From the IMG/VR virus record IMGVR_UViG_3300042934_000631, positions 4,412-68,411 of that record: DNA of 64,000 bases; one strand, written 5' to 3'. Of the stretch, positions 17,331-19,457 are shown piece after piece. The notes under the pieces were generated by a model. It had not been told where the DNA came from and ran no database searches. It worked only from the letters and a program-made list of their open reading frames with translations. How positions within the stretch are numbered: position 1 is the stretch's first letter; each line of letters opens with the position of its first letter. The stretch comes from a virus. Both the position numbers and the translations under genes were made by a program.

Positions 17331-17993
17331 ATGTTGAACTCGTTCCTTAACGTGTTCTTCGGCACCTTAGACTCACTAGCGACTTTCGTACTTATTTATA
17401 AAATTTTCCGTTGGCCGTTCTGGCGCGATTTCAACAAGCTGCTCATTCTCGCCGTCATCATCGCACTCGTCTCATTTGCGGACAGGACCGTGCTTGGACT
17501 AGCGGAATTCGATACCGCCATCCAATTCGTTCTGTATGTATTATTCCTGCGTTACATAATAAAAGTCGGATTCTGCGACGCTGCGCTGCTATCCGCGATT
17601 GGCTACAATAGTTTCTTACTTATTCAACTCATCGTTTATCCGGCGCTGCTTGCGTCAGGCATCGTAAGCACAAGTGACGCCGAAGTGGCGAGCGGTTTCG
17701 GAACATTCATCATCCAGGCATCGACTGAAATATCGTGCTTTATCGTTGCGGCATTGTTGTACGTGTTCCGTCTCGGATTTGCACACGTTGACTTACCGCC
17801 ACATGATGCTTACGCAATCCAGAGCTGCACGAAACTCGACTGGATCGCTAACGTAATCGGTGCGATAGCGGTCATGTCGTTCACGTACTGGCTATTAAAT
17901 CACGTAAGTAATATCACGTTAATGATTCCAGTACTCGCAGTCACACTGGCGTTCCTTCTATATTTATCGCGAAGAAAGGACTACGGAAGATGA
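17331..17993 (+). CDS. Multi-pass membrane protein resembling the AgrC sensor module, no kinase domain
   Basis: About 6-7 hydrophobic segments; 220 aa; ends RRKDYGR with no HisKA/HATPase; overlaps agrB. Confidence 0.6.
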   Translation: MLNSFLNVFFGTLDSLATFVLIYKIFRWPFWRDFNKLLILAVIIALVSFADRTVLGLAEFDTAIQFVLYVLFLRYIIKVGFCDAALLSAIGYNSFLLIQLIVYPALLASGIVSTSDAEVASGFGTFIIQASTEISCFIVAALLYVFRLGFAHVDLPPHDAYAIQSCTKLDWIANVIGAIAVMSFTYWLLNHVSNITLMIPVLAVTLAFLLYLSRRKDYGR

Positions 17994-18520
17994 CGTTAAC
18001 ATTATCTCGAAAGTTCGCGGATTTCACGCTTAAGCACAATCCGCATGAGACGCGCAGTTACGAATCGCTCGTCTATCAATTTGCAGTTATGGTAAACTTC
18101 TTGTCCATAATTACGTTAACACTTTTGATCGGATTGATCAATGGGCACTTAGGCGCAACTTTAACCGCGGGCGCTGCGTTTATGTCGTTAAGGGTGGTAT
18201 CCGGCGGCTTCCACTTTAAATCGTTAGACCTATGCGCAGTCGTAACGGCAGCCCTATACGGAGTCATCCCGCTAATACCGTTAGAATCCGCTTACATAAC
18301 GTGGATTAACGCGATCAGCCTCGTTTTAGTCGCGGCTCTCGCACCGACTAACTTGCGGAATACGTTATGGACGAGCACGACTCGCGCAAAGATAGCGTTC
18401 AAAGCTGCGGCTATGTGCGTAGTATTAATCGGATGGGCATTCGGTTCAGAAATCGTTGCGCTGGCGTTCCTGGCGCAGGCATTACTATTGATTCCACGAA
18501 GGGAGGTGGCCATTCGATGA
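17990..18520 (+). CDS. agrB: AgrB-like peptide-processing membrane protease
   Basis: LRVVSGGFHFKSLDLC (R-xxx-GG-x-H-x6-C catalytic dyad); LAP motif; several TM helices. Confidence 0.88.
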   Translation: MTLTLSRKFADFTLKHNPHETRSYESLVYQFAVMVNFLSIITLTLLIGLINGHLGATLTAGAAFMSLRVVSGGFHFKSLDLCAVVTAALYGVIPLIPLESAYITWINAISLVLVAALAPTNLRNTLWTSTTRAKIAFKAAAMCVVLIGWAFGSEIVALAFLAQALLLIPRREVAIR

Positions 18521-18636
18521 AAAACGTTGCTAAGTTTATGTCCGCTGTATCATTCGGCGTCGCATTTGTATTCTACGTTACCTTAAAGGGCGGTATCGGC
18601 GAAATCAGCGCACCAAAAGACTTCTTTAAAAAGTGA
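18517..18636 (+). CDS. agrD: AgrD-like propeptide, cassette copy (MKNVAKFMSAVSFGVAFVFYVTLKGGIGEISAPKDFFKK)
   Basis: GGGAGGTGG RBS; ATGA overlap with agrB; 39 aa; amphipathic leader and EIxxP tail. Confidence 0.85.
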   Translation: MKNVAKFMSAVSFGVAFVFYVTLKGGIGEISAPKDFFKK

Positions 18637-18646
18637 GATCAACGCT

Positions 18647-19036
18647 ATGATGAGTAAATTATCCTGCAGTGTTATTATAGACGGCAAGGTTGTTAAGGCG
18701 CACGAGATGGTTCCGTTAGCCAACGTTATTATAATAGATACGATCGAGCTATCAAGGAATGATCGTAGAATTCGGATAAGAGCGACTGACGGGGATTACG
18801 TCTTTAATTTGAATGGGGCACTGAACGTGATCGAAGATATGCTGACTGAGCACGGCTTCTGGCGCGCGGACAACAGTAATTTAATCAACATGGCTCACGT
18901 AGATAAGGTTGTCGACGCAATGTTCAAACCGGAGGTATTGTTCGTTAATACGGATATTCGCGGTCAAATCGCAGCCATTAAGGTGCGGGCCTTGAAGAAG
19001 CTGTTTCCGGAAATTTCGATAGTAAAGAACGCTTAG
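18647..19036 (+). CDS. LytTR-domain protein lacking a receiver domain
   Basis: LNVIEDML...FWRADNSNLINMAHVDKV resembles LytTR FxRxHRSxIVN; 129 aa. Confidence 0.75.
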   Translation: MMSKLSCSVIIDGKVVKAHEMVPLANVIIIDTIELSRNDRRIRIRATDGDYVFNLNGALNVIEDMLTEHGFWRADNSNLINMAHVDKVVDAMFKPEVLFVNTDIRGQIAAIKVRALKKLFPEISIVKNA

Positions 19037-19223
19037 CACAAAATATTGGAAATGTCAAGAGTAGTGTTTACCCCCAAACACTTGGGTATCCAAACGGGTG
19101 GAAAACATGGTAAACTTTAGTAGAAGGTAAAGTAAACGAGCAGCCGGACAAACGTCGATTCCACGATTGTGGAACGATCGCTATGAGGAACGGTGTTTAA
19201 ACCGATACACTCATACGCTGCCC

Positions 19224-19457
19224 TTACTCAGTTTCGACGATTTCCCAGTCGTACAGATCTTCCGCAGTTACGCCGAGAACGTGAGCGATCAGAATCGCGT
19301 TCTTGAGCGGAATACTCGGACGAACCTCCGTGCAATACGACGAAACTGTAGACGGACTTAATCGCGTGCGGTTGACGATATCCATCTGGATTAAGCCGCG
19401 CGCATTAAGTAAGTCCGGTATTCGGCAGCGTCCCATAACGATACTCACTCGTTTCAA
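19224..19457 (-). CDS. Xre-family HTH regulator (candidate repressor)
   Basis: GRCRIPDLL...LSPSTVSSYC...IAHVLGVTAEDLYDW; GGAGG RBS with TTG start. Confidence 0.8.
   Translation of the reverse strand: MKRVSIVMGRCRIPDLLNARGLIQMDIVNRTRLSPSTVSSYCTEVRPSIPLKNAILIAHVLGVTAEDLYDWEIVETE

What the first reader, a model, noticed from the sequence alone, without database searches (positions are those of the whole stretch)
17331..19457. Phage-encoded Agr-like signalling cassette lacking both phosphorelay domains
Seen: four tightly packed genes. They are a 220-aa multi-TM protein, AgrB with R-xxx-GG-x-H-x6-C, a 39-aa AgrD-like propeptide and a 129-aa LytTR-only protein. A convergent Xre regulator follows, and beyond it a divergent sigma-like gene. 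Established: canonical Agr uses AgrC (TM sensor plus histidine kinase) and AgrA (receiver plus LytTR), and C. difficile phage phiCDHM1 carries agrB/D/C with a kinase. Here both the kinase and the receiver are missing, yet the sensor-like and DNA-binding halves are intact with clean starts and stops. Inference: a phosphorylation-independent system in which the membrane protein binds the peptide and sequesters or releases LytTR, as in LytTR regulatory systems. Its position next to the repressor/sigma switch suggests a phage-phage communication system controlling lysis-lysogeny, analogous in logic to arbitrium but unrelated in chemistry.
Basis: partly seen in the sequence, partly recalled or inferred. 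Interest (0 to 1): 0.95.

Follow-up and report, generated by a model that had tools for sequence, protein, structure and literature searches.

The report
Kinase-free Agr-like peptide cassette, phage-plasmid
A Paenibacillus phage that probably lives as a plasmid carries an intact peptide-signalling cassette with no kinase or phospho-receiver and three signal-precursor genes, two next to replication and lysis genes, so it may let phages sense each other in an untested way.

Summary
Window 17331-19036 has four tightly coupled genes: a 220-aa seven-helix membrane protein (TM220), AgrB, a 39-aa AgrD-like peptide and a 129-aa LytTR-only protein. An Xre-like gene and a sigma-like gene follow. The 68.4-kb virus record has no kinase, receiver or integrase domain.

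It is not a decayed agr locus. TM220 is a stand-alone family: none of the 150 best relatives has a kinase. It occurs in 118 of 136 Paenibacillaceae genomes. In 22 of the 30 best loci the order is TM220, AgrB, LytTR. Brevibacillus and P. larvae phages carry the same cassette. A 2014 paper mentions the phage version without its LytTR gene, and this scan has flagged the type on other DNA.

Specific to this record:
- It looks like a phage-plasmid (ParA, replication initiator, no integrase).
- It has three precursor genes. One ends the lysis operon and one follows a replication-region gene.
- The precursors have a conserved Lys where a ring-forming Cys or Ser is expected.

Direct TM220-to-LytTR signalling has only weak support (complex score 0.38, controls 0.00). 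Control of lysis-lysogeny remains an inference. I rate it a new variant of a known kind, interest 0.75.

The parts
17331..17993 (+). TM220: 220-aa seven-helix membrane protein, the probable peptide sensor. It has no kinase domain.
   Evidence: ORF. No Pfam or NCBIfam hit. phrog_15604 E=2.3e-46. AlphaFold2 model with 137 sequences: pLDDT 95.8, pTM 0.92. Family search. Atlas structure neighbours include HATPase_c_5 kinases at TM 0.65 and 0.63.
17990..18520 (+). AgrB-type peptide-processing membrane protease with the His/Cys motif.
   Evidence: PF04647 E=8.2e-16. phrog_10353 E=9.2e-31. Motif conserved in 10 of 10 aligned AgrBs. ATGA overlaps on both sides.
18517..18636 (+). AgrD-like precursor, cassette copy. 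It has a hydrophobic leader, the KGGIGEI core and a P-K-D-F tail, and no Cys.
   Evidence: Translation. No TIGR04223 or other family hit. Lys lies 9 residues before the conserved Pro in 9 of 9 loci.
18647..19036 (+). LytTR-only protein with no receiver domain, the probable output regulator.
   Evidence: PF04397 E=9e-7, above the cut-off. Relatives of 118-135 aa are named LytTR family by their sources. The fourth gene of 7 of 7 related cassettes hits PF04397, 5 of them above the cut-off.
346..462 (+). Second AgrD-like precursor gene (38 aa). It lies directly after holin, Peptidase_C1 and glucosaminidase endolysin, and a hairpin with a T-run follows it.
   Evidence: Translation. Sequence and T-run. 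Holin PF05105 E=7.8e-36 and endolysin PF01832 E=1.1e-19. Alignment of the three copies.
22250..22366 (+). Third AgrD-like precursor gene (38 aa). It lies after the 267-aa gene (phrog_6883) and upstream of the PD-(D/E)XK and DNA polymerase A genes.
   Evidence: Neighbouring genes. A copy sits at the same place in L006.
19052..19122 (.). Conserved non-coding block between the LytTR and Xre genes. It is a candidate promoter or operator, with a TGnTAAACT extended -10-like site read by eye.
   Evidence: 64 of 71 and 61 of 71 bases identical to L006 and L007. The LytTR gene itself is 78% and 66% identical, and the rest of the spacer 40-46%. No stable RNA fold (z 0.35 and -0.50). No Rfam match.
19224..19472 (-). 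Xre-like HTH protein (82 aa), convergent with the cassette. It is the only HTH repressor-like gene I found on the minus strand.
   Evidence: HTH_3 E=2.9e-4, below the cut-off. phrog_8 E=7.9e-6. Conserved in L006 (53%) and L007 (84%).
19609..20199 (+). Sigma-70 family (ECF-like) factor, divergent from the Xre gene.
   Evidence: Sigma70_r2 E=4.9e-9. TIGR02937 E=2e-8, below the cut-off.
15848..15883 (+). Pair of 13-14-nt direct repeats spaced 23 nt apart. They lie just upstream of promoter-like sites before the ORF113-primase-cassette block. Candidate regulator site only.
   Evidence: The pattern ACGTWAA-N13-17-ACGTWAA occurs 4 times in the window against 0.06 expected. It is not conserved in L006 or L007.

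Best explanation
This is a working, phage-borne copy of a distinct kinase-free class of Agr-like peptide signalling module.

Shown:
- AgrB with its catalytic motif.
- Three AgrD-like precursor genes.
- A stand-alone seven-helix membrane protein family (TM220).
- A receiver-less LytTR protein.
- All are under purifying selection and keep the same gene order in many phages and chromosomes.

Inferred mechanism:
1. AgrB removes the C-terminal tail of the precursor and releases a small peptide. The peptide may be closed through the conserved Lys side chain into a lactam. Four residues plus the Lys side chain give a 16-atom ring, the same size as a five-residue thiolactone.
2. TM220 senses the exported peptide at the outer face of the membrane.
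3. TM220 holds or releases the LytTR protein by direct contact at its conserved cytoplasmic loop, without phosphotransfer.
4. The freed or captured LytTR protein changes transcription of phage promoters.

One precursor gene ends the lysis operon, one follows a replication-region gene, and the cassette itself follows the primase gene. Signal output should therefore track phage activity, so the module plausibly feeds into the phage's choice between quiescence and lytic growth.
For: Domains and coupling.

Not a decayed copy:
- 225 family members at E<=0.001. Of the 150 listed, 136 are 203-248 aa, 12 are shorter, one is 291 aa and one is 408 aa. None has a kinase.
- TM220 occurs in 118 of 136 Paenibacillaceae genomes, in frames of 214-289 aa.
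- Of the 30 best loci, 22 have TM220, AgrB and LytTR in that order.
- The same cassette is in phages Emery, Davies and Harrison.

Selection: dN/dS between the window and L006 is 0.11 for TM220, 0.17 for AgrB and 0.10 for LytTR.

Sensor reading:
- The confident model has 7 helices.
- By my reading of the sequence, 12 Lys/Arg lie in the loops I place inside and 1 in the loops I place outside.
- The nearest annotated Atlas structures are HATPase_c_5 kinases, at TM 0.65 and 0.63 over residues 2-220.

TM220-LytTR contact:
- Complex score 0.38 (three runs: 0.38, 0.47, 0.01), best of 3 controls 0.00, verdict weak support.
- The mark was reached by 58 of 80 solved complexes and 2 of 110 mismatched pairs. 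At 0.60 or under, only 7 of those 80 and both mismatches passed.
- The runs agree in at least 66% of contacts and the partner's pLDDT is at least 76.

The LytTR domain as the coupled module: chromosomal cassettes L018 and L019 put a LytTR-GGDEF-EAL protein in the same position.

Precedent: LytTR regulatory systems pair a receiver-less LytTR regulator with a membrane inhibitor (PMC6193735, abstract and passages).

Phage-centred wiring: three precursor genes, one after the endolysin gene.
Against: - No sequence or profile similarity links TM220 to six local HATPase_c_5 kinases. No solved structure matches.
- One family member (P0115, 408 aa) is a TM220-AgrB fusion, which fits a biosynthetic partner better than a receptor.
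- Six of the 30 best loci hold TM220 with neither AgrB nor LytTR detected nearby. One of them, L025, has only 278 nt of downstream flank.
- The complex prediction is only weak, and one of the three runs scored 0.01.
- The gene order is the reverse of described LytTR regulatory systems, where the regulator comes first.
- No conserved LytTR-type direct repeats were found upstream of 26 cassettes. The repeats found in the window are not conserved in L006 or L007.
- No expression data exist.
- The peptide chemistry and the LytTR target are unobserved.
Confidence: 0.55

Rival explanations
1. TM220 is not the receptor. It is a maturation, export or self-protection partner of AgrB. The LytTR protein is controlled some other way, for example constitutively, by the host, or by the peptide directly.
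For: - TM220 precedes AgrB and is translationally coupled to it.
- One relative is a TM220-AgrB fusion.
- Four nearly invariant polar or Gly positions (S48, R52, Q129, G149) across 137 sequences could mark a catalytic or transport site.
- There is no sequence similarity to kinase sensor domains.
- In S. aureus a second membrane protease, MroQ, is needed for pheromone synthesis (PMC9388083, search listing and abstract start only).
Against: - Some chromosomal loci already carry a separate Rce1-like (MroQ-type) protease beside TM220 and AgrB.
- TM220 copies occur without AgrB in 6 of 30 loci.
- The nearest annotated structure neighbours are sensor kinases. Transporter clusters score TM 0.49 or less.
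- The single fusion could result from a one-base error at the ATGA overlap.
Confidence: 0.2
2. The cassette is a captured host module used on the host, not for phage-phage talk. The phage would eavesdrop on, mimic or jam the host's own cassettes of the same type, or change host behaviour in the carrier state.
For: - Host-family genomes carry up to 9 TM220 copies, and 118 of 136 genomes have at least one.
- In the Brevibacillus and P. larvae phages the cassette lies in the accessory and lysogeny region next to the integrase and repressor genes.
- PHROGs files TM220 under 'moron, auxiliary metabolic gene and host takeover'.
Against: - The closest relatives of the phage's TM220 (61-82% identity) include the two I could inspect, L006 and L007, which carry it at the same position after the helicase and primase genes. 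The best library representatives are 47% identical or less.
- Three precursor genes, two next to lysis and replication-region genes, suit reporting of phage activity.
- The phage carries its own LytTR output.
Confidence: 0.2
3. The cassette is a decayed canonical agrBDCA locus that lost its kinase and receiver domains and no longer functions.
For: Only the absence of the two domains.
Against: - Intact, overlapping reading frames.
- dN/dS of 0.10-0.17.
- The stand-alone architecture is the rule in the family.
- The AgrB motif is conserved.
Confidence: 0.02

Closest known systems
Agr-like cassettes of Brevibacillus phages Davies (gp44-48), Emery (gp53-57) and Abouo, and P. larvae phages Harrison (gp38-41) and Paisley
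   Same: They have the same four genes in the same order: one or two TM220 copies, AgrB, a 38-42-aa Lys-type peptide and a protein of about 120 aa. Hargreaves et al. [quoted passage not shown]
   Different: - TM220 is only 29-34% identical.
- Those phages have integrases and keep the cassette in the lysogeny region. Here there is no integrase, the cassette follows the primase gene, and two extra precursor genes exist.
- The fourth gene is annotated 'peptidase' or 'hypothetical' there. The paper passages I read do not link it to LytTR.
Canonical agr quorum sensing (agrBDCA), including the P. polymyxa agr locus that makes a thiolactone peptide
   Same: AgrB with the His/Cys motif. A small precursor directly after AgrB with a conserved Pro-containing tail. 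A LytTR DNA-binding output.
   Different: - No histidine kinase and no receiver domain.
- A Lys sits where the ring-forming Cys or Ser is expected.
- The membrane protein gene comes first.
- The P. polymyxa peptide is a typical Cys-containing one (PMC12180512, sections 6 and 10).
LytTR regulatory systems (HdrRM, BrsRM of Streptococcus mutans)
   Same: A receiver-less LytTR regulator shares an operon with a membrane protein, and there is no phosphorelay (PMC6193735, abstract and passages).
   Different: - Gene order is reversed, and AgrB and AgrD lie between the two genes.
- TM220 has no Pfam domain, whereas HdrM carries DUF2154 according to that paper.
- The signal of the described systems is unknown. 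Here a dedicated peptide pathway is attached.
- Autoregulatory repeats are not established here.
C. difficile phage phiCDHM1 agr cassette (agrD, agrB, agrC)
   Same: A temperate phage carrying agr-type signal production and sensing genes (PMC3901668).
   Different: phiCDHM1 has a full AgrC with its kinase and no regulator. Here there is no kinase, and the phage carries its own LytTR protein.
Arbitrium (AimR/AimP/AimX) of SPbeta-like phages
   Same: Logic only: a phage-encoded secreted peptide that could report recent phage activity and bias lysis-lysogeny.
   Different: The parts are unrelated. Arbitrium has no AgrB, a cytoplasmic receptor and an imported linear peptide (recalled, not tested here).

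Membership tests
Canonical agr (agrBDCA) | AgrB (PF04647) with catalytic His and Cys | tested here: met
   PF04647 E=8.2e-16. R-x3-GG-x-H-x6-C is present and conserved.
Canonical agr (agrBDCA) | AgrD precursor next to AgrB with a ring-forming Cys or Ser before the cleaved tail | tested here: not met
   A small precursor with the conserved Pro tail is present, but it has no Cys. A Lys lies 9 residues before the Pro in all three copies. No cyclic-lactone autoinducer family hit in NCBIfam at E<=1.
Canonical agr (agrBDCA) | AgrC: membrane sensor fused to a histidine kinase (HATPase_c_5) | tested here: not met
   No HATPase_c_5 or HATPase_c match in the 68.4-kb record. TM220 ends after helix 7.
Canonical agr (agrBDCA) | AgrA: receiver domain plus LytTR domain | tested here: not met
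   The LytTR domain is present. No Response_reg match exists in the record. The protein is only 129 aa.
AgrC-type sensor domain (homology of TM220) | Fold or sequence relationship to the N-terminal membrane domain of HATPase_c_5 kinases | tested here: inconclusive
   Atlas structure neighbours score TM 0.65 and 0.63 to two HATPase_c_5 kinase clusters. hmmsearch and hhalign against local kinases found nothing. No solved structure matches.
LytTR regulatory system | LytTR-family regulator without a receiver domain | tested here: met
LytTR regulatory system | Membrane protein in the same operon that inhibits the regulator | not testable with these tools
   The two genes lie in the same orientation and are tightly packed. 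Binding has weak computational support only: 0.38 against 0.00. Inhibition needs genetics.
LytTR regulatory system | Two-gene operon with the regulator first and the membrane protein second | tested here: not met
   The order here is membrane protein, AgrB, peptide, LytTR. The described order is from PMC6193735.
LytTR regulatory system | Direct repeats just upstream of the operon's -35 for positive autoregulation | tested here: inconclusive
   One repeat pair at 15848-15883 lies before promoter-like sites. It is not conserved in L006 or L007. No common repeats were seen upstream of 26 other cassettes.
Arbitrium | AimR-type cytoplasmic peptide receptor plus AimP | not tested
   No cassette protein had any Pfam hit other than AgrB and LytTR. 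No specific AimR model was run. The comparison is of logic only.

The most novel reading that the evidence does not exclude
This is a phage-plasmid communication system of a new mechanistic type.
- AgrB turns three Lys-type precursors into a side-chain lactam peptide. Their positions suggest transcription with replication and lysis genes.
- A kinase-free seven-helix receptor reads the peptide and directly gates a bare LytTR regulator.
- The regulator acts on the adjacent Xre/sigma region to set lytic growth against plasmid-like carriage.
- The same wiring, common in Paenibacillaceae chromosomes, would give LytTR regulatory systems their first known ligand.
Probability: 0.2. Interest if true: 0.9.

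Novelty: new variant of a known kind. Interest (0 to 1): 0.75.

Why it matters
If the mechanism holds, it adds three things.
1. A phosphorylation-free way to read Agr-type peptides: a membrane sensor acting directly on a LytTR protein. This would give LytTR regulatory systems, whose signals are unknown, a defined ligand.
2. A second, chemically unrelated family of phage peptide communication besides arbitrium, here on a probable phage-plasmid.
3. A possible new peptide chemistry, with Lys in place of the ring-forming Cys or Ser.

The module occurs in 118 of 136 sampled Paenibacillaceae genomes and in bee-pathogen phages. The biology would therefore be broad and testable in culturable strains.

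Tried and rejected
Searches that found nothing:
- blastn of the cassette against the phage collection.
- TM220 family profile against PDB sequences: only E of about 0.1 to cytochrome oxidase subunit II.
- Foldseek against PDB: no match at E<=0.001.
- Foldseek against BFVD: no match at E<=0.001.
- Atlas feature search restricted to named clusters: no usable hit.
- hmmsearch of the TM220 HMM against 21 HATPase_c_5-region ORFs from four Paenibacillus genomes: best E 0.014, a local stretch only.
- hhalign against the first 230 residues of six kinases of 383-448 aa: probabilities of 0.9% or less.
- Rfam on 18950-19700.
- Exact 22-mer of the conserved block in viral contigs: 0 matches.

Results set aside:
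- The first structure model, from 6 sequences, was poor (pLDDT 46). It was replaced by the 137-sequence model.
- Promoter and terminator scans were not above their shuffles: 9 against 8.4 and 10 against 8.9.
- The repeat finder on 18990-22420 gave one 2-copy family only.
- Direct repeats upstream of TM220 in 26 other cassettes showed no shared motif.
- The ACGTWAA repeat pairs also occur near the partition region (7545, 7765). They are absent at the matching sites of L006 and L007. I do not assign them to LytTR.
- RNA folds of 19045-19135 are not better than shuffles.

Expression: no RNA holder listed. Three soil-metagenome DNA runs were listed, one of them the possible source.

Literature: searches found no description of the TM220-AgrB-AgrD-LytTR type beyond the paragraph in PMC3901668. 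The search 'LytTR regulatory' plus 'AgrB' returned 0 papers. Supplements are closed. The AgrD lists of PMC12180512 (data S2-S5) and Figure S3 and Table S3 of PMC3901668 may bear on how much was seen before.

Recalled, not from a call:
- The register of the S. aureus ring Cys (10 residues before the tail Pro, cleavage 5 residues before it). The three Ser-type cassettes here give the same register.
- The N-out, 7-helix topology of AgrC.
- The parts of arbitrium.

Peptide classes (Lys-type, Ser-type) were assigned by my reading of the printed ORFs, not by a program.
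Full report
WHAT IS THERE

Window 17331-19036 holds four co-directional genes.
- TM220: 17331-17993, 220 aa, membrane protein.
- AgrB: 17990-18520, 176 aa.
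- A 39-aa peptide: 18517-18636.
- A 129-aa protein: 18647-19036.

The first three are joined by ATGA stop/start overlaps, and TM220 starts 18 nt after the primase stop.

Pfam gives AgrB (E=8.2e-16) and LytTR (E=9e-7), both above their cut-offs. It gives nothing for TM220 or the peptide. NCBIfam adds nothing for those two. PHROGs recognises TM220 (phrog_15604, E=2.3e-46), AgrB (phrog_10353) and the LytTR protein (phrog_15081, labelled 'peptidase').

The AgrB motif R-x3-GG-x-H-x6-C is present and conserved. Downstream lie a weak Xre-like HTH gene on the opposite strand and a sigma-70-family gene divergent from it.

THE ELEMENT

The window is bases 4412-68411 of a 68,411-bp virus record that CheckV rates 100% complete. 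The record encodes:
- a ParA-like protein, a partition protein, a replication initiator and a DnaC-like loader;
- a Toprim primase, with a 453-aa ORF upstream that I read as the replicative helicase (not scanned against any family library);
- a holin, a papain-like peptidase and a glucosaminidase endolysin.

It has no tyrosine integrase, serine recombinase, histidine-kinase ATPase or receiver domain. Its closest relative, L006, is a 69,145-bp contig of Paenibacillus planticolens whose title marks it as circular. I read the element as a temperate phage-plasmid. This is an inference, not shown. A second relative, L007, lies inside a 614-kb scaffold.

NOT A DECAYED AGR LOCUS

A profile of TM220 searched against 1.84 billion representatives found 225 proteins at E<=0.001. 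Of the 150 listed:
- 136 are 203-248 aa;
- 12 are shorter;
- one is 291 aa;
- one is 408 aa. This one is a TM220-AgrB fusion, not a kinase fusion.

The profile hits 118 of 136 genomes of the family of G001, up to 9 times per genome. The listed frames are 214-289 aa.

In the 30 best loci, my local HMMs found:
- TM220, then AgrB, then a LytTR protein of 108-170 aa in 22 loci. One of these LytTR ORFs is open-ended. Four of these loci are the same places as L004-L007.
- TM220 and AgrB only in 2 loci.
- TM220 alone in 6 loci. One of them has only 278 nt of downstream flank. Five lie next to a gene of about 315 aa that I read, without a test, as CorA-like.

Phages Emery, Davies and Harrison have the same cassette next to their integrase and repressor genes. 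The fourth gene hits LytTR in 7 of 7 related cassettes tested. Five are above the cut-off. Emery (19.1 bits) and Davies (16.9 bits) are below it.

Between the window and L006, dN/dS is 0.11 for TM220, 0.17 for AgrB, 0.40 for the 38-codon peptide, 0.10 for LytTR and 0.16 for the primase. Several comparisons with L007 are saturated at synonymous sites.

THE PEPTIDES

The record has three precursor genes.
- The cassette copy.
- A copy at 346-462. It lies directly after the endolysin gene, and a hairpin with a T-run follows it.
- A copy at 22250-22366. It lies after a 267-aa gene and before the PD-(D/E)XK and DNA polymerase A genes.

The two outlying copies share their leader and upstream sequence. 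All three share the core KGGIGEI. L006's genome has two exact cores and L007's has one.

Across loci, by my reading of the printed ORFs:
- 9 of 9 loci have Lys 9 residues before a conserved Pro.
- Of the 20 loci, 12 have that same pattern, 2 have the Lys-x-x-hydrophobic-Gly part without the Pro, 3 have Ser 10 residues before the Pro, and in 3 I found no candidate.
- None has Cys at the ring position.

The Ser-type register equals the canonical one (recalled). A ring from the Lys side chain to the residue 6 before the Pro would have 16 atoms, the same as a five-residue thiolactone. This arithmetic is my inference. It makes a lactam plausible but shows nothing. The one Paenibacillus peptide characterised in print is an ordinary Cys type (PMC12180512, sections 6 and 10).

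WHAT TM220 IS

With 137 sequences the model is confident: pLDDT 95.8, pTM 0.92, seven long helices. From the sequence I count 12 Lys/Arg in the loops I place inside and 1 in the loops I place outside. That gives N-terminus outside and C-terminus inside.

The nearly invariant positions are S48, R52, Q129 and G149. By this topology the first three lie near the outer face. G149, with a PPH motif, lies in the long cytoplasmic loop.

No solved structure or viral model matches. In the ESM Atlas, the nearest clusters with a family label are two HATPase_c_5 sensor-kinase clusters, at TM 0.65 and 0.63 over residues 2-220. Transporter clusters score 0.49 or less. HMM and profile comparisons with local kinases of that type found nothing. 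'AgrC-like sensor without kinase' is therefore a lead supported by predicted structures only.

COUPLING TO LYTTR

The complex prediction gave weak support.
- Score 0.38 (three runs: 0.38, 0.47, 0.01). Best of three controls: 0.00.
- The mark was reached by 58 of 80 solved complexes and 2 of 110 mismatched pairs. At 0.60 or under, only 7 of those 80 and both mismatches passed.
- The runs agree in at least 66% of contacts, and the partner's pLDDT is at least 76.

Independent genomic hints:
- In two chromosomal cassettes (L018, L019) the position after AgrB holds a 602-aa LytTR-GGDEF-EAL protein. There the LytTR domain looks like the module that couples to the cassette, with a different output.
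- Other loci add a second LytTR-only gene and kinase-like proteins of other families.

LytTR regulatory systems give a precedent for a membrane protein controlling a receiver-less LytTR regulator (PMC6193735). Against the receptor reading stand the TM220-AgrB fusion, the TM220 copies without partners and the reversed gene order.

LINK TO THE PHAGE'S DECISION

No target of LytTR is established. The link rests on position.
- The cassette follows the helicase and primase genes. This position is kept in L006 and L007.
- It abuts the only HTH repressor-like gene I found on the minus strand and a divergent sigma gene. I scanned three other minus-strand ORFs: two had no Pfam hit and one hit Wzy_C.
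- Between the LytTR and Xre genes lies a 71-nt block that is 90% and 86% identical to L006 and L007. The LytTR gene is 78% and 66% identical, and the rest of the spacer 40-46%. The block has no significant RNA fold or Rfam match. It is a candidate promoter or operator.
- The Xre-sigma spacer also has conserved blocks.
- Repeat pairs of ACGTWAA are enriched: 4 against 0.06 expected. They are not conserved in relatives and also lie near the partition region, so I do not assign them to LytTR.

The placement of precursor genes next to lysis and replication-region genes is the best argument that the signal reports phage activity. No expression data exist.

COMPARISON AND NOVELTY

Hargreaves et al. 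2014 already noted agr cassettes in phages Davies, Emery and Abouo, with membrane proteins lacking the kinase domain (PMC3901668, passages). In the passages I read they did not connect the fourth gene to LytTR. A 2025 review repeats only the agrB/C/D story (PMC11945551, passages). The Brevibacillus and P. larvae phage papers list AgrB in tables only. Seven searches found no description of this architecture as a signalling type. Supplements could not be read.

Earlier notes of this scan report the same cassette type on other DNA: 56 notes hold all six search words, in at least 40 genomes, and the 8 shown all describe kinase-less cassettes, with similar verdicts. They agree with my reading but are not independent evidence.

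New here are the phage-plasmid context, the three precursor genes next to lysis and replication genes, the LytTR-GGDEF-EAL variant, the conserved block after the LytTR gene and the weak complex support.

VERDICT

This is a real, conserved, selected module and a new variant of Agr-type signalling. Its mechanism is plausible but untested.

My confidence in each step:
- A functional kinase-free peptide module: about 0.75.
- TM220 as a sensor acting directly on LytTR: about 0.5.
- Control of lysis against carriage: about 0.3.

Interest: 0.75.

Noticed in passing
L018:6831-8639 (and L019:4469-6277, minus strand): In chromosomal Paenibacillus cassettes, a 602-aa LytTR-GGDEF-EAL protein takes the place of the LytTR-only gene after TM220 and AgrB. 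In L018 an Rce1-like (CAAX) protease gene lies upstream.
   Followed up: partly
window 19052-19122: A 71-nt non-coding block after the LytTR gene is more conserved (90% and 86%) than the flanking genes. It contains short inverted repeats and a TGnTAAACT site (read by eye). It has no significant RNA fold and no Rfam match.
   Followed up: partly
window 20417-20456 and 20464-20628: A run of TACG-led repeats of about 10-12 nt lies just before a strong ribosome-binding site. The site belongs to an unannotated, basic 54-aa ORF whose stop overlaps the start of the 188-aa gene. Two promoter-like sites matching 11 of 12 positions lie on the minus strand at 20262-20398.
   Followed up: no
window 7515-7765 and 8790-8840: ACGTAAAC/ACGTATAC repeat arrays lie around the ParA gene. 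They are probably partition or replication sites and share a core with the repeats at 15851 and 20418.
   Followed up: no
window 22390-22614: A 74-aa ORF, which I read by eye as having two membrane helices, lies directly after the third precursor gene. A 39%-identical homologue lies downstream in L006. Function unknown.
   Followed up: no
window 62001-64000 (63273-63959, minus strand): The last 2 kb drop to 39% GC and hold a minus-strand Wzy_C (O-antigen ligase-like) gene. This may be a cargo gene or the edge of the element.
   Followed up: no
L078:3526-5590 and L080:3250-5761: Some chromosomal cassettes are followed by a second LytTR-only gene and a large membrane kinase-like protein of another family (GGDEF-HisKA-HATPase_c, or His_kinase-HATPase_c), again without a receiver domain.
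   Followed up: partly
L001:4268-4933 and L002:4265-4924; L043: TM220 genes occur as tandem paralogues in phages Emery and Davies and in one chromosome.
   Followed up: no
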